A DNA stretch of 64,000 nucleotides, taken from Eledone cirrhosa. Its lineage: Eukaryota. Under the pieces are notes generated by a model. That model had not been told where the DNA came from. It saw only the letters and a program-made list of their open reading frames with translations, and did not search any database. Positions 9,986 to 63,995 of this stretch are shown here, one piece after another; the first letter of the stretch is position 1; every line of letters begins with the position of its first letter. The position numbers and the translations under genes are program-made. The DNA lies in NCBI GenBank assembly GCA_964016885.1, contig OZ024742.1, positions 110,856,001 through 110,920,000 on the forward strand, in the 5' to 3' direction.

Positions 9986-10241
9986 CCTGTCTACTGAGAT
10001 TACTGAATTTGTCACTACTCTAAAACAATAGCATACGGTCTTCAAAATGCTTTTAATGCATAAAGTGTATTGCAAAATACATTATATATACATCCATATA
10101 TATATTGCTATTTCAGAGGTCCAATTCTAATTTTTAATTTCTGCCTGACCAACAATCGCTCTGTATAATCAGTTCCTGATTATTTACTAGAATTCTATAA
10201 GAATATAACATTAGTAATCTCAGTAGACAGGAGGGGTAGTT

Positions 10242-10286
10242 AGCCTTGATAAGCTTCAACAAAAGCGAAACAAGGCCTTGTCGGCT
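10242..10286 (+). ncRNA. Hammerhead ribozyme with U3:A8 core (TTGATAA)
   Basis: AGCC TTGATAA GCTT-CAACAA-AAGC GAAA CAAGGCCTTGTC GGCT. GUC triplet with cleavage after C10282. Stem I is extended by AATCTCAG/CTGAGATT. Confidence 0.85.
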
Positions 10287-10561
10287 TATCTCCCCTGTTT
10301 GCTGAGATTAAAGTAAGTGAATTTGTTACTACTCTAAAACAATAGCATACGGTCTTCAAAATGCTTTTAATTAAGCGTAAAGTGTATTGCGAAATACATT
10401 ATATATATACATCCATATATATATTGCTATTTCAGAGCTCCAATTCTAATTTTTTAATTTCTGCCTGACCAACAATCGCTCTGTATAATCAGTTCCTGAT
10501 TATTTACTAGAATTCTATAAGAATATAACATCAGTAATCTCAGTATACAGGAGGGGTAGTT

Positions 10562-10606
10562 AGCCTTGATAAGCTTCAACAAAAGCGAAACAAGGCCTTG
10601 TCGGCT
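10562..10606 (+). ncRNA. Second identical U3:A8 hammerhead
   Basis: Exact copy 320 bp downstream. Confidence 0.85.
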
Positions 10607-10730
10607 TATCTCCCCTGTTTGCTGAGATTAAAGTAAGTGAATTTGTCACTACTCTAAAATAATAGCATACGGTCTTCAAAATGCTTTTAATTAAGCATAA
10701 AGTGTATTGCAAAATACATTATATATACAT

Positions 10731-10780: not shown

Positions 10781-12912
10781 ATAATAATAAATTTGAAGAC
10801 TAAAATACAAAGAGGGTTCGATAAAGATAAATATATATCAAACATATAAGAACCGTACAGCAAATATTTATTAAAATAACAGATTAATGTTTAAGCAAAG
10901 AATCGCTGCTTTCCCCCTTAACGGGAACTTCTGAAGCTAAAAAAGTCAATCTGTGAACGCAGAAGTAAATATTTCAAAAAACGTTGCAACCGAAGTAAGA
11001 CAGCAAGACGATACTTTGGTTCGTGTAAACGTTCCCTGGCAAAGAACGGTAAAAAACGAGGATAATACGTCATTATATGGAGCGGAGGAAAACAATTACA
11101 TGCAAAGACAAAACCACGTTTATGGTATAAATGAAGTCGTAGACTAATTTTTATTAGGTGATTCATGGAGACGTTCTCTGGCAATGAACGAAAAAAAACG
11201 AAGATAATACGTCATTATGTGGATCGAAGAGGACAATTACACGCACAGACAAAACCACGTAAATGGCATAACTGAAGTCGTAGACTAAAATTCTATTCAG
11301 GAAACCGAATGATCCTCGGCTTCAGAGTTAAGAATAAAGTAAATAAAATACAGAGATAATTGAAACTAAAATTATACATACTTGCATCCATATACGTACA
11401 TACACAAGCATATGCGAAAACACTCGCCATGGGTATTCAAATACAAGCACATACACAAAAAAACACGCACGCAGATACAGAACCCACGCAACGCCTGTAC
11501 CCGCACACATACGAACGTATACACCAAATACACATAAAAATATATATTAAAAAAAAAATATTAAGTAACTGTAAATAAATATACACACATAAATACGTAT
11601 ATAACGAGCGCACACACATACCTACATGTAAATACACATATGTTGGCAGACGTATGTCAACCAAAACAGAAAGTACACATATACACACACACAACATACG
11701 CACGACCCGCATACTCACACAGACGCAAAACTCACGTATACACATATACCAGTATATATAATATATACGCCATAACGTATACAAGTTAATATACGTACGA
11801 GAAAGTATACGTACCTTCACAAAACATACAGGTAATATATACAAATAAGTAATGGTATAAACATAACATATACTTAGCTACCACATCAAGACGTAAAATA
11901 TCCGCGTATAGTTCGTACTATCCGTTAGGGTATAATGTGGGGCTGTAATACAGGAACGTTTTGTGCAATTTATGTTTACAAGCCGAAATTGCCTCAAATT
12001 CTTTGTTTAAGATGTGATCATTGGCGTAGAGTATTTCCCGGGCCTCAGCGACGCAGAGGTCACATGATCTTTTATTTCCGTTATACGATCTAGCCTCAGC
12101 TAGGATCTCCCAGTGTAACTTATATTGGGTGTGGTTGTCTTTTAGACTCCAGATATAAGCTGAAAGGGACGTCATATTCATTCTTAAAGGGTTAAGAAAA
12201 GAATGGGTATGCATGTAAAGACACTGCTTGAATCTATTGGTGGTTAACCATATGTAGTCCCTACGGGACGTGGGTGTTTCAACTTACATGTGTATACAAT
12301 GTTACTAGAGAGGCATTTCCCGGATAGGAGCAGTCAACCCGATTCCTACAATTACAGTTAGTACTAGCTACAGGGTTGCACGTGTTCCTACGGCTAGGTA
12401 ATTTAGCTAAATTTGAAGCTGTGATGTTATGTACAAGGTTAGGAGTCGTAGTGTAAGAAATTTTACTGGTATTTCTATTAAAAATTTTACTATATCTATG
12501 TGCTGGGGGAAATGCTTCATAATAATGGAGAGAAAGATCTTAACTAATGGTGTGGCCACCTCCATATTATATGTGGGTTATACCATATAATGCATCTGGA
12601 TCTATTTTTCCTAGGTCTATTCTCGTACTCTGTATATGCTACCTTATCGACAAATCCACTCCGAGCAAGAGCTTCATTGTAATATGTGGAATGGCTGTTG
12701 AAAATATGCTCGTTTGTAGATAGACGGGAAAGCCTCAAAGAAACGTTTCTTACCAGGTTCTTGGGTATGCTGCCAGCATCGTTGATTTCATTAATGACGC
12801 TCCGATTAGTTTTACGGTATTCCTTATTTACAGCATTATATAGCAGTTGATGGTAAGGAATGCGCTCCACTTGATATAGATTGCCAGTTTTGTCGGAGTG
12901 GACGTGCACGGC
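10778..12912 (-). mobile_element. Decayed Naiad-type PLE lacking the RT core, with long 3' UTR; inverted copy of its UTR at about 12915-13330
   Basis: ORF pieces VHSDKTGNLY..EIN / KNLVRNVSLRLSRLS..WYNP and LSAYIWSLKD..CDLCVAE..SACKHK align to the 14866-16794 protein. Its 3' end recurs at about 2351, 6920 and 38488. Confidence 0.85.
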
Positions 12913-13348
12913 ATTGGGTTCTGTATGTACGTATATGCATGCGTGTATGTATAATCTTAGTTTCAATTACCTCTGTATTTTATTTACTTTATTCTTAACT
13001 TAAGTATATGTTATGTTTATACCATTACTTATTTGTATAGGTAAGTATTTATTATCTGTTATTTTGTGAAGGTACGTATACTTTCTTGTACGTATATTTG
13101 CTTGTATATGTTATGGTGTATATATTATATATACTGGTACATGTGCATTTGGTTATGTGTATACGTGAGTTTTTCGTCTGTGTGTATATTTCGTCGGTAT
13201 GTGTATATGTGTATTTTGTGTTTTGGTTGACATACGTCTGCGAACATATGTGTATTTACATGTAGGTATGTGTGTGCGCTCGCTATATAATTATTTATGT
13301 GTGTATATTTATTACATTTATTAATTATATGTATACACGCACACACAT

Positions 13349-13382
<34 letters not shown>

Positions 13383-13498
13383 GACATAGAATATTCGAAA
13401 ATATTCTGTATGTTTATAATAAACATTTTGAAGACCTAATCGCTATAGAATAGAATACGTCACGTATTACAATTAGATTCTCGATAAAAGCAAGGGAA

Positions 13499-13541
13499 GT
13501 AATCTACGCGTTTCATTCTTGTTAGAATTCATCAGGACTAC
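13499..13541 (-). ncRNA. Type I hammerhead ribozyme (310-nt unit, inverted copy)
   Basis: Reverse complement of 13725-13767. Confidence 0.88.
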
Positions 13542-13724
13542 ATATCCAGTGCTTTTATCGAGAATGACACAGCTAGAGACTTATAGAATACTTAGCTGTG
13601 TACAGGAACTGGTTTGAAAGAGCGGTTGCCGGTCCGGCAGAAATTAGAAATTGGAATAAATGCTCTGAAATAGCGATATATATGTGAATATAGACATAGA
13701 ATATTCGAAAAAAGCACTGGATAT

Positions 13725-13767
13725 GTAGTCCTGATGAATTCTAACAAGAATGAAACGCGTAGATTAC
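13725..13767 (+). ncRNA. Type I hammerhead ribozyme (310-nt unit)
   Basis: GTAGTC CTGATGA ATTCT-AACA-AGAAT GAAA CGCGTA GATTAC. Palindromic stem III ACGCGT is typical of minimal PLE/retrozyme HHRs. Cleavage predicted after A13761. Confidence 0.9.
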
Positions 13768-14034
13768 TTCCCTTGCTTTTATCGAGAATCTAATTGTAAT
13801 ACGTGACGTATTCTATTCTATAGCGATTAGGTCTTCAAAATGTTTATTATAAACATACAGAATATTTTCGAATATTCTATGTCTATATTCACATATATAT
13901 CGCTATTTCAGAGCATTTATTCCAATTTCTAATTTCTGCCGGACCGGCAACCGCTCTTTCAAACCAGTTCCTGTACACAGCTAAGTATTCTATAAGTCTC
14001 TAGCTGTGTCATTCTCGATAAAAGCACTGGATAT

Positions 14035-14077
14035 GTAGTCCTGATGAATTCTAACAAGAATGAAACGCGTAGATTAC
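14035..14077 (+). ncRNA. Type I hammerhead ribozyme (310-nt unit, second tandem copy)
   Basis: Identical motif, closed by a perfect 16-bp ATTCTCGATAAAAGCA/TGCTTTTATCGAGAAT extension. Confidence 0.9.
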
Positions 14078-14259
14078 TTCCCTTGCTTTTATCGAGAATC
14101 TAATTGTAATACGTGACGTATTCTATTCTATAGCGATTAGGTCTTCAAAATGTTTATTATAAACATACAGAATATTTTCGAATATTCTATGTCTATATTC
14201 ACATATATATCGCTATTTCAGAGCATTTATTCCAATTTCATATATATATATATTTATAT

Positions 14260-14560
14260 ATATTTTTATGTGTGTGTATTTGGTGTATACGTTCGTATGT
14301 GTGCGGGTACAGGCGTTGCGTGGGTTATGTATGTGCGTGCGTGTTTTCTTTTGTATGTGCTTGTATTTGCATACCCATGGCGAGTGTTTTCGCGTATACT
14401 TGTGTATGTACGTATATGGATACGTGTATGTATAATTTTAGTTTCAATTATCTCTGTATTTTCTTTACTTCATTCTTAACTCTGAAGCCGAGAATAATTC
14501 GGTTTCCTAAATAGAATAATAATCTACGACTTCATTTATACCATAAACGTGGTTTTGTCA
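14260..14560 (+). repeat. Further copy of the 3' UTR of the 10778-12912 PLE family
   Basis: Reverse-complement homolog of about 11250-11545. Confidence 0.75.
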
Positions 14561-14586
14561 AAACGACCAAATGTTATCTCGACCAG

Positions 14587-14782
14587 GGGGAGATTAATAA
14601 TAATAAAGTATATATACCTACACGCAAAATACATATAGGGACACATGTATTATCCAACCATATGCCAATGTGGTTCTATGGCAGGTTAATAAATTACACA
14701 TTGCCATATGGTTGGATAATACATGTGTCCCTATATGTATTTTGCGTGTAGGGATATATACTTTATTATTGTTAATCTCCCC
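14587..14782. repeat. Inverted repeat (about 85-bp arms) at the 5' junction of the Naiad ORF
   Basis: GGGGAGATTAA...CAATGTG pairs with CACATTG...TTAATCTCCCC, with few mismatches. Confidence 0.85.
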
Positions 14783-14865
14783 ATGACAGATATTGCGACA
14801 ACCAAGACTTCGGCACCAAGGAGAGATTCGGATTTATTACCTACAAATCTCCGCCCCTGAACCCC

Positions 14866-16794
14866 TTGCTCGCACCCTTCGAGAATGACCTCTTCCAACT
14901 GGTCAAGAACATTAAATTTAAACCCAGACACAACCGATTCCTACAAAAACTCCGTAGCAACTTAACAGAGTATGATAACACAAATGACATCATGGTGCAT
15001 TCGGATAAAACTGGGAACCTATACTTTGTCAACCCTGACAGATACCACACACTGATCAGGAGCAGCCTAAACTCCACCTATAAAAAGGCCAACCACTCTT
15101 GCATCGAGGACATAAATCGAGATGGACAACAAATCACCTCCAGCCTCGGGGTCGCCGACCGCACGGAACCTCTAGACCCACGGACACCATACTTCACACT
15201 GAAGGACCATAAATCCGATTTTGACCGTAAACCCTCTATCAGGCTTATTAACCCAACGAAGTCCGACATAGGGAGAATCAGCAAAAAAATCCTAGACCGC
15301 GTGATACCAAAAGTCAAGCAACACACCCGACTTAGCCTATGGATCAACACCCAGGAAGTAATCTCCTGGTTCAGCAATATGGAGGATAAACGAGAAACTA
15401 AATTCATACAGTTCGACATAGAGAGCTACTATGCTTCAATCACCTTACCGCTACTTACTGCCGCCTTGGACTTCGCCGAAACACTCGTGCCCATCACCGA
15501 CCAGGAAAGAAAAATCATCCTCCACGCCAGGAAGACAGTCTTACTCTTTGACGACTCTAAATGGATAAAAAGAGCTCCCGACTCACCCTTCGACGTCAGC
15601 ATGGGCGCCACGGATTCGGCGGAGGTCACTGATCTTATAGGATTATTCCTAATAGCCAAACTCACTGATATGTTTCCTGCATTCGGTGGTGGATTGTACC
15701 GTGATGATGGGCTCCTTACCCTTAAAGGGTACAACCCCAGTAGTACAGATCGGGTCCGGAAACAATTAATCAGATTCTTCCGCGACTGGGGATTTAAAAT
15801 AACCCTACAAACGTCCCTGACCCGAGTAAACTTCCTGGACGTAACCCTCGACCTCGAAAACGACCTGTACTACCCATACAGGAAACCTAATAACAATCTG
15901 CACTACATCCACCGCCGATCAAACAATCCTAGGAACATCACAAACAACCTGGTCAAAAACATCTCCCTCCGCATATCCCGTTTGTCAGCTAATGAGCGGA
16001 TATTCGATGAACATGCGCCTTATTACAACCAGGCCCTCAAGCGGAGTGGTTTCCGGGAGGAAATATCCTACTGTCCAGCTCCCATTAGCGGAACCAGCAG
16101 GAGACACCGCCGCTCACGCAATGTAACATGGTTCAATCCTCCCCACAACGCAGAGGTGACTACTCCCATCGGGAAACTATTCTTTAGGCTCATTGAAAAA
16201 CACTTTCCATTACAACACCGCTACCACAACATAATTAACAAAAATACCATCAAACTCTCTTACAGCACTACACCAAACTTCGCACAAAACATCGTCTCCT
16301 CTAACAACAAAAAACTCAACCCCGATGGCAGAAATAACCTAAATAGCAGTGGAGAACCGACCAGGAGGTGTAACTGCCCGGATAGATCTATTTGCCCACT
16401 CGACAATAGATGCAGAGACCGTAATGTGATCTACCAGTGCAACGTGAGGACGGATACTTCCAACAAAGCCTATATAGGACTTACCGCATGTGACTTCAAG
16501 ACCCGGCTATACCAACATAGACATACCTTCCGAAACCCGGCCCGGCGTCACGCCACTACACTTTCGGGCCACATATGGGACCTCAAGGACAACAACATCA
16601 CCTATGATCTCACTTGGAGATTACTGTCCAGAGCCAATTCTTACACGGGAGGACGCCGTCCGTGCAATTTATGCTCGGAGGAAACTTTACAAATGCTGTT
16701 TTCGACGGACCAACTCCTAAACAAGAAAGATGAACTGGTTACTGCATGTAAACATAGATTGCGTAGGACTTACCTCGCCCTCAAACCCCTATAA
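14866..16794 (+). CDS. PLE polyprotein: reverse transcriptase plus CxC-x5-C-x5-C linker plus GIY-YIG endonuclease
   Basis: Motifs TLKDHK, RLINP, QFDIESYY, FDVSMGA, GLYRDDGL, VNFLDV, WFNPP, CNCPDRSICPLDNRC, VIY..YIG..FKTRLYQH, CNLCSEE, ACKH. The frame stays open upstream to about 14780 (ERFGFITYKSPP) with no ATG, so the ORF is 5'-truncated. Confidence 0.93.
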   Translation: MLAPFENDLFQLVKNIKFKPRHNRFLQKLRSNLTEYDNTNDIMVHSDKTGNLYFVNPDRYHTLIRSSLNSTYKKANHSCIEDINRDGQQITSSLGVADRTEPLDPRTPYFTLKDHKSDFDRKPSIRLINPTKSDIGRISKKILDRVIPKVKQHTRLSLWINTQEVISWFSNMEDKRETKFIQFDIESYYASITLPLLTAALDFAETLVPITDQERKIILHARKTVLLFDDSKWIKRAPDSPFDVSMGATDSAEVTDLIGLFLIAKLTDMFPAFGGGLYRDDGLLTLKGYNPSSTDRVRKQLIRFFRDWGFKITLQTSLTRVNFLDVTLDLENDLYYPYRKPNNNLHYIHRRSNNPRNITNNLVKNISLRISRLSANERIFDEHAPYYNQALKRSGFREEISYCPAPISGTSRRHRRSRNVTWFNPPHNAEVTTPIGKLFFRLIEKHFPLQHRYHNIINKNTIKLSYSTTPNFAQNIVSSNNKKLNPDGRNNLNSSGEPTRRCNCPDRSICPLDNRCRDRNVIYQCNVRTDTSNKAYIGLTACDFKTRLYQHRHTFRNPARRHATTLSGHIWDLKDNNITYDLTWRLLSRANSYTGGRRPCNLCSEETLQMLFSTDQLLNKKDELVTACKHRLRRTYLALKPL

Positions 16795-17920
16795 TGACCC
16801 GGGGGGGGGGGGGTAGACTAGGGCTATAACACCCCACTTGCCGATTTTGCAATGGGTAACCCCTGCTTGCCAAGGAAGACGTAAGATCTTCTTTGTATTC
16901 TTTTATCGCTTCCTTTAATTCCTTCCCCCCTCTCTCCTTTGTCCTTCTACCCCAGCTCTTCTCCTTTGTCGGCGTCTTTTCTCGCCCACCCGAGGCTGCC
17001 CTTTGGCCCCATGTAGCCTTAGTACCCCCCCCCTCCCCTAGTCTATGATAGATTTGGCGGACTCCGCCCTTTATAGCAGTTGGCTTAGACCCCGGATACT
17101 TGCCCCCTTTTTTCCGACCGCTCCCACTATTCTCTGTGCCCTCTATATTTCTTAGTGGCACTTATGCCTTATTTTTTCGTTTCAGTATTTCTTGCTTCGC
17201 TTTTCTTCTGGGCGGGGTGGATTCTGAATTTATTTCTCCGTATTCTACCTTTATTTCGTACGAACTTTCATGTAGCTTGTTTTAGATCTTTTAGAGTTAG
17301 CATTAGTATATATTTTTCTCGGGACTCAGAATTATTATCTCGTACAAGTTCACTTTGCTGCACTGGGTCGTTGCTGGCCCGGGATGGAAACCTTTATTGT
17401 TTATTTCGTGGTAGTCTCTTTAGTATTTTGGCCCCTTTTGTTGACCCGTCACCGTATCATTTACGTACTTATACCTCTTAAAAGGGTCCTTGCCTTATCC
17501 GTCCCACCTAGTTCTTTTACTTATTTCCTTATTTATTTATTTATTTATTTATTTACTTCTTTCTTTCTTTCTTTATTTTATTCTCGCCTAACAATAGCCT
17601 GACACCTAGGTCGTAGAATTTAATTTACTTTACTTTTTTCTTTACACTTATTTGCTTTTCTTCACTCTCAGTATTTTTTCTTTCCTATTTCTACCCCCCA
17701 TTGTTCTACCTACCGTTCCGACTTCCTCCCCCTCCCCCTCCCCTGTATCTTCTTTGACCTCATGCCCAGCTGTAGCTGGCACTACCAACGCTTGATTGGG
17801 TCTACTCCACCCCCTCCCCTCTTTCTCCTACTGGCAGGTTTAGCCACCATCTCCCCTACTAATTTGCAACCACAGAATTACTACTGATTTTTGACAATCA
17901 CTTTGACCATATATGGAATT

Positions 17921-18014
17921 ACCCCTTGAGAAGATCGGCTATTTAAATACCAGGATAAATTTTCATTTAGTCCAGAATTAGCCGTCGAAACGGCTTGAGC
18001 TCAGCTGTCGGGGT
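17921..18014 (+). ncRNA. Hammerhead ribozyme with U3:A8 core (TTGAGAA) in the PLE 3' end
   Basis: Stem I ACCCC/GGGGT, core TTGAGAA 17926-17932, stem II GA(T)CGGCTA/TAGCCGTC with a large loop, GAAA 17987-17990, stem III ACGGCT/AGCTGT, GUC triplet with cleavage after C18009. Confidence 0.85.
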
Positions 18015-18106
18015 CTTACTGGTTCCTATTACCCACTCTACTACCTCAAGTATTGAGTACTTTGGTGCGTTATGGTCCACCTGGTTCCTTACCACATTTC
18101 CTTCGT

Positions 18107-18161
<55 letters not shown>

Positions 18162-60579: not shown

Positions 60580-62460
60580 TTACTGAAGTGCTTTTGGATA
60601 CACAATGTTTTTTGTTTTTCCTTCTGGTGCGTACACAAATAAATCAGAAGGTTTACCGACGCGTGAGCAAGCCACACACAGCTGTCCATGTGAGAAGCAT
60701 GGATTTTCTAAATTTAGTCCACACACTTGTAGCGATTGTCCTTGTGCTTTGTTGATAGTCATTGCAAAGGCGAGTCGCACCGGAAACTGCAAACGTTTGA
60801 ATTCGAATGGCGTATCTGTCGGAATCATTGGGATGCGTGGCAACAGTACACCTTCTGCTTTTAATTTTCCATTTAAAATTGTAGCTTCGATGATATTGTT
60901 CATCATCTTTTTCACTGAAAGCCTGGTACCGTTGCAAAGTTGTGGTGGATTGATGTTTCGGAGAAGGATGATAGGCACGCCAATTTTCAATGTTAAAATG
61001 TGCGGTGGCATGCCTGGCAAATCAAGTGAATTCAAGAATTCAGTTGGATAATTGATAATTTCGTCTTGATTCATTACAGTATCGATGGACTTATACGTTG
61101 TCGCTTCGCCTGGTATTTTGTTTTGAATGCTGAAATAAATGGCATTGACATCGTCGTTTTTGGCTGCTCATATAGCACGTGCATTGAGCCACTGATGATT
61201 TTTGTAATGCTGCGCGATATTTGGGAAAACTTTGTGAATCAGTTCGTCTCTGGTTGCCGTGATTCTACAGAAGTTTGTTGGCAATGTCATACATTTTGTG
61301 GATTCATCGATTACCATTTTCCCATTCCCAATATCCAGCAATTGTTTTGTGAAACGTTCAGCGGATGCATCATTTTGTAGTTGTACACGCATATTGGTTT
61401 TTAAAGTTAATTTCTGTATGTGTCGCCATAAAACTGATGATTTGAGACATGCATTAAGCTCATCAGCGGGTGTTGATCGCGGTATAACTGGTAGAGTTTG
61501 TCGAAAATCACCAGACAATAAAATGAGTGTGCCACCGAAGAGCTGTTCATTTCCTTTCAAATATTTTAGTGTGTTATTAAGCGCTTCCAATGATTTTTTG
61601 TGCGCCATAGTACATTCGTCCCATATAATGATTTAACATGATTGGAGTACTTTACCTATACCAGAACTTTTGGTGATATTGCATGTTGGTGTCTCAGTGA
61701 TTTGCATATTCAATGGCAATTTCAGTGCTGAATGTGCAGTTCGGCTACCATCCAAAAGAGTTGCCGCAATTCCAGATGATGCGATTGCCAGTGCAATATT
61801 ATTTTGTGATCGTATAGTTGCCAAAATATGTGAAATGAGAAATGTTTTGCCTGTACCACCGGGCGCATCTATAAAATACAATCCGCCGCTTTGATTTGTA
61901 ATTGCCTGCATAATTTTGTCATATACTATGCGTTGTTCTGGTACCAATTTCAGAAGATTCGTTTGAACAAATGTACCCAATTCGGCGACATCAAAGTTTG
62001 TTTCTCGTTGCAAATCACGATCGAAAATGTCGTTTACAGATCGATTCGGCGCAGGTATTCCCAATTGTACCAGTGTTTTGTTAGCGATTGCTAAACATAT
62101 GACCTCAATCGAAACCAATGCTTCATTATACACGATTGGTGTGAATTGAATATTCAGATTTTGATTTGTTGCACGCAAACGATGTAGGATGTCTTCACTC
62201 ATGTAGTCTTTGTATTTTTCCCAAAGATCTTTTGGATTTGATGGGAAGCACGTTGTCAATATTATTGCGAATAACGTGCGTATTTGCTGTGGTCGAGCAG
62301 TATTCGATGCATCAGCGAGTGAAGTGTCCCAATGTCCATCATTTTCAAGAAGATTTAATTTTTGGCAAGCTTCACGATAAGTGGCACATACTTGACCGTT
62401 TACTGTTCTCAATTCTTGGAATGATGTCGGTCCACGTACGTTGATTAACAATAATCGCAA
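60580..62460 (-). pseudogene. Helitron PIF1-family helicase region, with in-frame stops at about 61633 and 61168 and a frameshift near 62490
   Basis: DAPGGTGKT, ASSGIAATLL, IWDECTM, GDFRQTLPV, LCNGTRL and AMTINKAQGQS motifs. Confidence 0.92.
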
Positions 62461-62476
62461 GTAAAAGCATTCTGCA

Positions 62477-63995
62477 TTATTTGGGTGAACAGTACAAACG
62501 GCCTAACGCGTCGGTCGAATATAAATTGGAATGTCCTTCAACTACTTTACCCTGTTTGCGACGTTTAAACTTTTTCGTTGATGTATTCCATGTGTAATAT
62601 GTTGGCACTTCAGAATAAAGTAGTGTCTTTGCAAACACATCTTCACTGCACAATGAGAAAAATTCAGTTAACGTTGTTGGCGGTGGTGTCAATGCCCTTG
62701 CACGTATATTTTCAGTTGTGAAGTATACGCGCTGTCCATTTTCAAGGTGCACCGCCAAATGAACAACTGTTGGATGTTGATAATGGATTGGAAATGAGAA
62801 AATGCGCCGTACTGCTTCATTACTACTAATGTAGCGTACCAGTTGGTATTGGTCGATTTCATCGATAGATGCATTTGCATTGCACACTCCAAAAACTGCC
62901 ATATCGCTTCCTTTGTTGATATATTTGCAAATGTACTTGATCGCTTTCACCGAATTGCAATACTCGACATTGATGTGTGCTTTGAACGTCTTTGAGAGTA
63001 ACGGTAAATATGGTACAACCCAACGATTATCGACTTCAACATAATTGTTTCGTACTTTTAAAGTGATGGATTTGCCGCCATCATCAGTTGCTCGTCGACG
63101 ATAGAGTGGATATCCGTCATTGCCAGTGATAGTCTCGGCAACTAAGTCTCTTGGGTATTGTTTCGTGCATTTCCCATCAGACATGCATGGTGAATTGTTG
63201 TTGAGTAAGCTACATGGACCATGAATCATGTTTTTAGTGACGACTTCAAATAAGTCTGGATCAACGTCGACATCTGGTATTTCTGCAGAGATGATTTGAT
63301 CAATTTGATCTGGTCTGACTTTTTCAATTAACCAAATCAAAATGTGTGCATGTGCCAATCCTCTTTTTTGCCATTCAATGGAAAACATCCAACAGCGTGT
63401 CTCTCCAAAAACATGATGCTTGACAATTAAATCCGTTAAAGATTTCAATTTTTGTTTGAACACACGCGCTGTAATATCATGACGATCCGAAGACGATTGA
63501 CCAGGTAACAAAAGTTCTTTAATTTCATCCCACGTAGGATTGCATGTGAATGTAATAAAAATATTTGGATGGCCATATGCGCGAACATATGTCATTGCAT
63601 CTTGTGCGTATTCATGCATGTGCCGTGGGCTCCCTGTAAATGTAGCGGGCAGTATGACCATTTTTCCCCAATTAATTAGGATTCATATTGCCATCATTAA
63701 CAATGGCATAACGTAAATGAATGTACTCTTCTGAACGTAGTTTGGTTTGATTCAATCGAATGTAGAGGAGTCGTTCAGTTTCGATTTTTGCATACATATC
63801 GACAATGTATTGATGGAACAATTGTCGACATTTCAAAATATGATTTTCACCGTTTTCACGAATCATTAATCTATATGAATAATAATTCATGGCACTGACT
63901 TTCTTATTCGTTTCCTCATCTGTTTGTGGATTTCTCAGTTTGATGTTGAAATGATATCCATCTTCTCCTTGCCAAAATAAAATCGGATATTGCAA
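62477..63995 (-). pseudogene. Helitron Rep (HUH endonuclease) region, interrupted by a stop and frameshift near 63665
   Basis: FITFTCNPTW, EWQKRGLAHAHIL, MIHGPC, DNRWVVPY and KYICKYINKG motifs. Confidence 0.92.

What the first reader, a model, noticed from the sequence alone, without database searches (positions are those of the whole stretch)
17921..18014. Autonomous PLE with a full-size U3:A8 hammerhead 1.1 kb downstream of the stop codon
Seen: all three stems pair, with a 6-bp stem III rather than a minimal one, a 37-nt loop on stem II, and a TTGAGAA core. The sequence is unrelated to the 10242 HHR, so the rare U3:A8 variant occurs in two different families within 8 kb. Inference: the variant may be common in this lineage and able to cleave as a monomer.
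Basis: partly seen in the sequence, partly recalled or inferred. Interest (0 to 1): 0.7.

Follow-up and report, generated by a model that had tools for sequence, protein, structure and literature searches.

The report
Penelope hammerhead with fossil cut marks
This is a self-cutting-RNA (hammerhead) motif of an already described variant at the end of a broken copy of a very abundant jumping gene; thousands of tiny genomic copies begin inside the motif's long loop and a minority begin exactly at its predicted cut, which likely records where the element's RNA starts and that the ribozyme cuts in living cells.

Summary
The hammerhead is real as described: type I, U3:A8 core, 37-nt loop II, 6-bp stem III. 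It ends a Hydra-clade Penelope-like element. This copy is not autonomous: it lacks the start codon, 43 N-terminal residues and the upstream pLTR. The family is young and has intact copies. U3:A8 is already published in PLEs (Schistosoma) and is active in vitro. What the genome adds: of 98 short copies, 70 begin at 17964-17976 inside loop II (sharp edge at A17969/G17970, extra G as from a cap) and 8 begin exactly at the cut, G18010 (background 0.5 per position). In 8 of 8 filler-joined palindromes with one arm at 18010, the partner ends at 18010-18012. So transcription likely starts in loop II, leaving the 5' ribozyme copy incomplete, and the complete copy likely cuts in vivo, but only partly. 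The 3:8 pair is loose: about 3,440 U3 copies, 1,150 mostly C3·A8, a few U3·G8. Monomer cleavage is untested and the stem III loop is still palindromic. No RNA reads were available. The scan noted the same footprint earlier on other DNA of this genome.

The parts
14783..16794 (+). 5'-truncated ORF of a Hydra-clade PLE (RT + C-terminal GIY-YIG-type EN); lacks ATG and 43 N-terminal aa of the 717-aa family ORF; H424N; C-terminal frameshift
16795..17914 (+). 3' UTR / pLTR body, fast-evolving between subfamilies
17915..17925 (+). hammerhead stem I, 5' strand (proximal 5 bp and distal 5 bp)
17926..17932 (+). core U3 U4 G5 A6 G7 A8 A9; position 7 is G or T in the family, position 3 is U or C
17933..17986 (+). 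stem II (8 bp, bulged U) with 37-nt loop 17942-17978
17940..17947 (+). TATA-like word at -29 to the inferred start; present only in the U3:A8 subfamilies; motif name recalled
   Evidence: sequence
17967..17971 (+). inferred transcription start A17969 in an initiator-like TTAGT/TCAGT word inside loop II (motif name recalled); 5' edge of most short copies
17987..18009 (+). GAAA box, stem III (6 bp, near-palindromic with loop) and C17
18009..18010 (+). predicted cleavage site C|G; second 5' edge of short copies
18010..18029 (+). stem I 3' strand with bulge; 18029 is the short 3' end class of family copies (inferred RT start 1)
18030..18109 (+). 80-nt tail with a bulged hairpin at 18035-18058; 18109 is the long 3' end class (inferred RT start 2); a like hairpin follows 18109 in tandem copies
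18107..18128 (+). (TA)n target microsatellite

Best explanation
This is the pLTR hammerhead of a 5'-truncated copy of a young Hydra-clade Penelope-like retrotransposon, and the family's short genomic copies have two 5' edges, likely a transcription start at A17969 inside loop II and likely a ribozyme cut at G18010. Shown: the fold, the family, the truncation, two 3' end classes (18029, 18109), the two 5' edges and their concordance between the arms of one insertion. Inferred: a promoter in an upstream pLTR starts capped RNA in loop II, so the RNA's 5' end holds only the 3' half of the ribozyme (predicted to fold into an inactive hairpin) and keeps its cap. The whole ribozyme forms only where transcription has run through the next pLTR, and there it cuts a minority of molecules. 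The element's RT starts at 18029 and 18109 from the two ends of a nick in (TA)n and runs off whichever 5' end the template has; the two cDNAs are joined into a palindrome. Long insertions come from uncut read-through RNA or from re-ligated circles. Whether the cut is made by a monomer, a dimer or with protein help is not settled; a monomer is feasible.
For: 6,760 arms carry the 18010-29 anchor with foreign sequence 60 nt upstream. Of the first 100 listed, 98 were recovered: 0 start at 17952-63, 15 at 17964-68, 55 at 17969-76, 0.5 per position at 17985-18008, 0 at 18009, 8 at 18010 (two of the 8 are one tandem duplicate and paired arms are not independent). Two-sided set, 99 of 100 rows: 1.5 per position at 17994-18008, 9 at 18009 (C supplied by the inverted arm in all 9), 12 at 18010, 41 at 18011-21. 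TA-adjacent set, 51 loci read by eye: 5 at 17998-18009, 11 at 18010, 1 ambiguous, 34 downstream. In 8 of 8 inverted pairs joined by filler with one arm at exactly 18010, the partner ends at 18010-12. Of 25 TA-joined ends at A17969 the preceding base is G 8, C 2, T 15 (target or native), A 0 (by eye). Three-helix fold probability 0.83 at 25 C for 17905-18035; the half starting at 17969 folds an alternative hairpin at 0.9. U3-A8 covariants are natural and active in vitro (PMC3088659 section 8). Two internal RT starts explain the PLE tail (PMC11167929); PLE start sites lie in the upstream pLTR (PMC6765202 passage).
Against: No RNA evidence: the only RNA run held 6% of words and laid one contig outside the motif. 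1,151 copies have non-U at position 3, and 96 of the first 100 are C3 with A8, a mismatch; an older group has U3.G8 (13 of 32). So whole subfamilies spread without a Watson-Crick 3:8 pair. Their tail type also shows 18010 ends (8 of 12), though that tail type also occurs with U3:A8. No compensatory stem changes, only invariance, and the region is also constrained as promoter and RT start. With 120 nt more upstream context the predicted hammerhead fold drops to 0.03. About 92% of short arms and all long copies read through 18010. In the anole PLE, cleavage was not needed for insertion in vitro and no RNA reads began at the site. The cap-G count is small.
Confidence: 0.65

Rival explanations
1. 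G18010 is a second, minor transcription start (C|G fits a pyrimidine-purine start) or a protein-nuclease site; the hammerhead shape is kept mainly as promoter and RT-start sequence and hardly cuts.
For: Concordant arm ends show an RNA 5' end but not its cause. C3.A8 and U3.G8 subfamilies amplified. No covariation.
Against: The edge falls on the predicted cut to the base. An extra G precedes 2 of 12 ends at 18010 against 8 of 25 at A17969. U4 G5 A6 A9, GAAA and GUC stay fixed while N7 varies.
Confidence: 0.17
2. The ribozyme cuts, but only as a dimer or in trans (for example one RNA's 5' half pairing with another RNA's 3' half) or with the PLE protein's help; the 6-bp stem III does not make it a working monomer.
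For: Stem III with its loop is nearly self-complementary (-26.3 vs -4.9 kcal/mol) and GAGCTC is kept in all four subfamily majorities. Metazoan PLE hammerheads are weak and dimeric; the anole one needs protein. A competing hairpin and upstream sequence disfavour the fold.
Against: The isolated motif folds all three helices at 0.83. Fungal PLE hammerheads with a large helix III cleave as monomers. This rival is compatible with the footprint and differs only in the active form.
Confidence: 0.13
3. The 18010 peak is a DNA-level artefact: RT pausing at the stem III hairpin, or microhomology joining at the CG/GGGG run.
For: Perfect fold-backs and several 18009 ends have 1-3 nt microhomology; discordant pairs (17970 with 18009) exist.
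Against: TA-joined and filler-joined ends without microhomology peak at 18010, not 18009, and 8 of 8 filler-joined pairs are concordant.
Confidence: 0.05

Closest known systems
Hydra clade of C-terminal EN+ PLEs (Craig et al. 2021, PMC8557442; passages, section 11, supplement parts 1-2 and search hits read)
   Same: DKT, RW(R), CxCX5C linker, CxxC and CxH motifs, single ORF, (TA)n target, pLTR hammerhead, inverted 5'-truncated arms, one-sided tail.
   Different: Every Hydra hammerhead row in its File S2 has C3:G8, loop II of 3-10 nt and stem III of 3-4 bp; this one has U3:A8, 37 nt and 6 bp. Unit 3,531 bp against mostly <3 kb. Tail 80 nt against 30-40.
U3-A8 minimal hammerheads of Schistosoma mansoni Cercyon PLEs (Cervera and de la Pena 2014, PMC4209133; parts 1-2 of 4 read, supplements not seen)
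   Same: U3-A8 core in a PLE pLTR, long helix II, short helix I, palindromic helix III.
   Different: Those lack a real helix III and were weak even as dimers; no in vivo evidence was given.
PAc Poseidon element of Anolis (Frangieh et al. 2024, PMC11167929; parts 1-2 of 4 read)
   Same: Two internal RT start sites downstream of the hammerhead that define the tail; AT-rich targets.
   Different: There the ribozyme is protein-assisted, dispensable in vitro and no reads began at the cut; here genomic copies begin at the cut.
Natural U3-A8 core covariants (Perreault et al. 2011, PMC3088659; section 8 and passages read)
   Same: Same compensatory core pair, stated to be active in vitro.
   Different: Not tied to PLEs; that section does not mention amplified C3.A8 or U3.G8 cores.

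Membership tests
Type I hammerhead ribozyme | three helices around the core, ends in stem I | tested here: met
Type I hammerhead ribozyme | core NUGANNA / GAAA / NUH with a 3:8 Watson-Crick pair | tested here: met
   U3:A8, GAAA, GUC in the window copy; not met in C3.A8 and U3.G8 sister subfamilies
Type I hammerhead ribozyme | stems supported by compensatory changes | tested here: inconclusive
   invariant, no two-sided changes seen in subfamily majorities
Type I hammerhead ribozyme | loop 1-loop 2 tertiary contact | not tested
   a bulge in stem I exists; contact not examined
Type I hammerhead ribozyme | site-specific self-cleavage | not testable with these tools
   indirect only: genomic 5' ends at G18010
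Hydra-clade PLE | DKT in place of DKG | tested here: met
   DKT at 117
Hydra-clade PLE | N-terminal RWK motif | tested here: met
   RWR at 37 in full-length copies; lost from the window copy
Hydra-clade PLE | CxCX5C linker, CxxC-E and N-CxH motifs, C-terminal EN | tested here: met
   572, 670, 689; YIGLT at 606. Pfam gave no match
Hydra-clade PLE | (TA)n insertion, pLTR tandems and inversions | tested here: met
Hydra-clade PLE | placement in an RT phylogeny with named Hydra elements | not tested
   reference sequences seen only in a supplement and not used as input
Autonomous PLE copy | intact ORF with start codon | tested here: not met
   intact 717-aa copies exist elsewhere
Autonomous PLE copy | upstream pLTR supplying the promoter | tested here: not met
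   no family sequence 5' of 14783

The most novel reading that the evidence does not exclude
This PLE family nests its promoter inside loop II of its own hammerhead, so transcription splits the ribozyme: the capped 5' end is safe while the complete 3' copy cuts, and hundreds of genomic stubs starting at the cut are a direct record that a PLE hammerhead cleaves in the germ line, through subfamilies with U3.G8, C3.A8 and U3:A8 cores.
Probability: 0.5. Interest if true: 0.72.

Novelty: new variant of a known kind. Interest (0 to 1): 0.55.

Why it matters
Whether PLE hammerheads cut in vivo, and what for, is open: Craig 2021 calls the function unclear and Frangieh 2024 found cleavage dispensable in vitro with no RNA ends at the site. 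Genomic stubs give a read-out that needs no RNA and can be repeated in any long-read genome. A start site inside loop II would explain how an element can carry a ribozyme at both ends without losing its cap. The family also offers natural U3:A8, C3.A8 and U3.G8 cores in one scaffold for a direct assay. The U3:A8 core itself is not news.

Tried and rejected
Rfam scan: only microsatellite-driven miRNA matches in the 150 rows shown. DNA search of the own genome with the motif returned nothing, not even the window, so it is uninformative. Pfam and PDB gave no useful match to the ORF. Sequencing runs: no raw RNA reads; one RNA contig outside the motif. A contig run of unrecorded kind shows about 20-fold higher summed depth over 17920-18140, in line with many stubs, but contig depth is no copy number. 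The idea that the ORF starts at an ATG inside the pLTR was rejected: the ATG lies 91 nt into the body. The idea that full-length copies come from one start-to-cut RNA was not supported: of 29 ATG-bearing copies with a defined upstream end, 26 run past 17969, 1 ends at 17970, none at 18010, 2 downstream; 5 further rows ran into tandem units or the locus edge (copies chosen for long open frames). Order of core changes: the 3' UTR tree (43 of 60 loci kept) separates C3 and U3 clades; the rooted EN tree nests the U3 clade among unresolved C3.A8 rows, but the outgroup is distant and one row is misassigned, so direction is not settled. Assigning 18010 stubs to C3.A8 parents by tail haplotype failed. 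A whole count of long arms with the same anchor was not obtained. Lunse 2017, Przybilski and Hammann 2007, Nelson and Uhlenbeck 2008 and Martick and Scott 2006 were not held; one search opened an unrelated paper.

Full report
Observation. Stem I is 17921-25/18010-14 with a distal extension, the core is TTGAGAA, stem II has 8 bp and a 37-nt loop, stem III has 6 bp, and the cut is C18009|G18010. The hammerhead fold is the minimum-energy structure. A descriptor scan finds it and five other motifs in the window, against 0.2 per shuffled window. The 10.2-kb repeat is unrelated to it, but is homologous to a 13.7-kb repeat whose hammerhead is C3:G8 (scores 20 and 113 against about 20-23 shuffled).

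The element. The upstream frame has the Hydra-clade motifs DKT, CxCX5C, CxxC-E and N-CxH, as defined in Craig et al. 2021 section 11. The best 150 of 72,916 candidates in the 3.0-Gb genome are 100% identical over the last 196 residues, so the family is young. The unit is 3,531 bp, occurs in tandems and inversions in (TA)n, and encodes 717 aa. The window copy begins at 14783. It lacks the ATG, 43 residues with the RWR motif and any upstream pLTR, and has H424N at a column invariant in 60 of 60 homologues. The family is autonomous; this copy is not.

U3:A8 is known. Perreault et al. 2011 report natural U3-A8 covariants and cite in vitro activity (section 8). Cervera and de la Pena 2014 found about 1,300 U3-A8 motifs tied to a Schistosoma PLE. 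Within the Hydra clade it is new relative to the published table, where every Hydra row is C3:G8 with a 3-10 nt loop II and a 3-4 bp stem III. Census here: 3,442 matches with U3, 98 of the first 100 with A8; 1,151 with non-U, 96 of the first 100 C3, none of those with G8; 32 with G8 under a different anchor, 13 of them an older U3.G8 type and 6 C3:G8. The 10.2-kb repeat family has 486 matches, 99 of the first 100 U3:A8. A second Hydra family and the 13.7-kb repeat are C3:G8. So U3:A8 was seen in 2 of 4 families examined, which is not a genome-wide census. Across four subfamilies the stems and boxes stay fixed while the 3' UTR drifts, without compensatory changes.

Two 3' ends and two 5' edges. 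Copies end at 18029 or 18109 and run into (TA)n, matching the two internal RT starts shown for the anole element; a bulged hairpin follows each end. A pattern that demands foreign sequence 60 nt upstream of the cut finds 6,760 arms. For 98 of the first 100, the 5' ends are: none at 17952-63, 15 at 17964-68, 55 at 17969-76, 0.5 per position at 17985-18008, none at 18009 and 8 at 18010. A second set open on both sides of the cut (99 of 100 rows of 2,794) gives 1.5 per position upstream, 9 at 18009, 12 at 18010 and 41 at 18011-21. All nine 18009 ends take their C from the inverted arm and are ambiguous. In 51 loci with TA close by, read by eye, 11 begin at 18010 and 5 in the 12 positions before it. 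Most stubs are head-to-head pairs. Where filler bases separate the arms, so that microhomology cannot set the end, all 8 pairs with an arm at exactly 18010 have the partner at 18010-12 (102 pairs examined). This points to a separate template whose 5' end is G18010, not to RT pausing on a longer RNA. Discordant pairs with microhomology also exist.

The first edge looks like a transcription start. It lies in TTAGT or TCAGT (initiator-like, name recalled), 29 nt after a TATA-like word present only in the U3:A8 subfamilies. Of 44 TA-joined ends, 25 begin at A17969, preceded by G in 8, C in 2, T in 15 and A in none (by eye); an extra G is the expected trace of a copied cap (own knowledge). PLE start sites are known to lie in the upstream pLTR. 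An RNA that starts here holds only the 3' half of the ribozyme, predicted to fold into a competing hairpin (0.9).

Mechanism. Transcription starts in loop II of an upstream pLTR; the 5' half-ribozyme cannot cut in cis; the complete ribozyme forms at the next pLTR and cuts some molecules; RT copies from 18029 and 18109 to whichever 5' end exists. Cleavage must be partial or reversed by ligation, because most arms pass 18010 and 26 of 29 ATG-bearing copies extend upstream of 17969. The steps from edges to cap and to cleavage are inferred.

Against. There is no RNA evidence. Subfamilies with a mismatched or wobble 3:8 pair spread widely, and their tail type shows 18010 ends too, without a clean assignment to core type. 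Longer context disfavours the fold (0.03). The stem III region pairs far better with a second copy than with itself, so 'monomer' is open; metazoan PLE hammerheads tested so far were weak, dimeric or protein-assisted.

Print and earlier notes. Searches of the held library found no report of genomic PLE copies starting at the hammerhead cut or of a start site in loop II. Lunse et al. 2017 and the supplements of Cervera 2014 and Perreault 2011 were not seen and could hold similar motifs. Seen: PMC4209133 parts 1-2 of 4; PMC8557442 passages, section 11, supplement parts 1-2 and hits; PMC11167929 parts 1-2 of 4; PMC3088659 section 8 and passages; PMC7229834, PMC6765202, PMC2377424 passages; bioRxiv 10.64898/2026.07.22.740005 part 1 of 5 and passages. 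After my reading was logged, one search showed that other agents had noted the same footprint on other DNA of this genome; these notes agree but are not independent support. The twin-hairpin check came from them.

Verdict. The finding as written is mostly known and partly wrong. The stub record is the part of value: it makes in vivo cleavage by a PLE hammerhead directly testable. Interest 0.55, new variant of a known kind.

Noticed in passing
window 9990-10730: Tandem 320-bp non-coding repeat with a U3:A8 hammerhead (10242, 10562) and a perfectly palindromic stem III; 486 matches in the genome; retrozyme-like.
   Followed up: partly
window 13366-14240: 310-bp repeat with a C3:G8 hammerhead in tandem plus an inverted arm; homologous to the 10.2-kb unit, so the 3:8 pair differs between related repeats.
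   Followed up: partly
window 14584-14785: A 200-bp palindrome (89-nt arms) abuts the truncated 5' end of the PLE; pieces of it match three other loci; possibly a stub of another element.
   Followed up: no
window 11248-14559: Long degenerate inverted repeat enclosing the 13.7-kb repeat.
   Followed up: no
window 61633-63682 (-): Helitron Rep and PIF1 helicase fragments in adjacent frames.
   Followed up: no
L173-L202: A second Hydra-type family (about 37% identity in the EN region) with a C3:G8 hammerhead and a shorter loop II, also ending in (TA)n.
   Followed up: partly
L223-L252, L283-L312: Sister subfamilies of this PLE carry C3.A8 (about 1,100 matches) or U3.G8 cores, that is, amplified non-Watson-Crick 3:8 states.
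   Followed up: partly
L031-L032: Array of at least four head-to-tail 3,531-bp units with intact ORFs, as a circular or multimeric template would give.
   Followed up: partly
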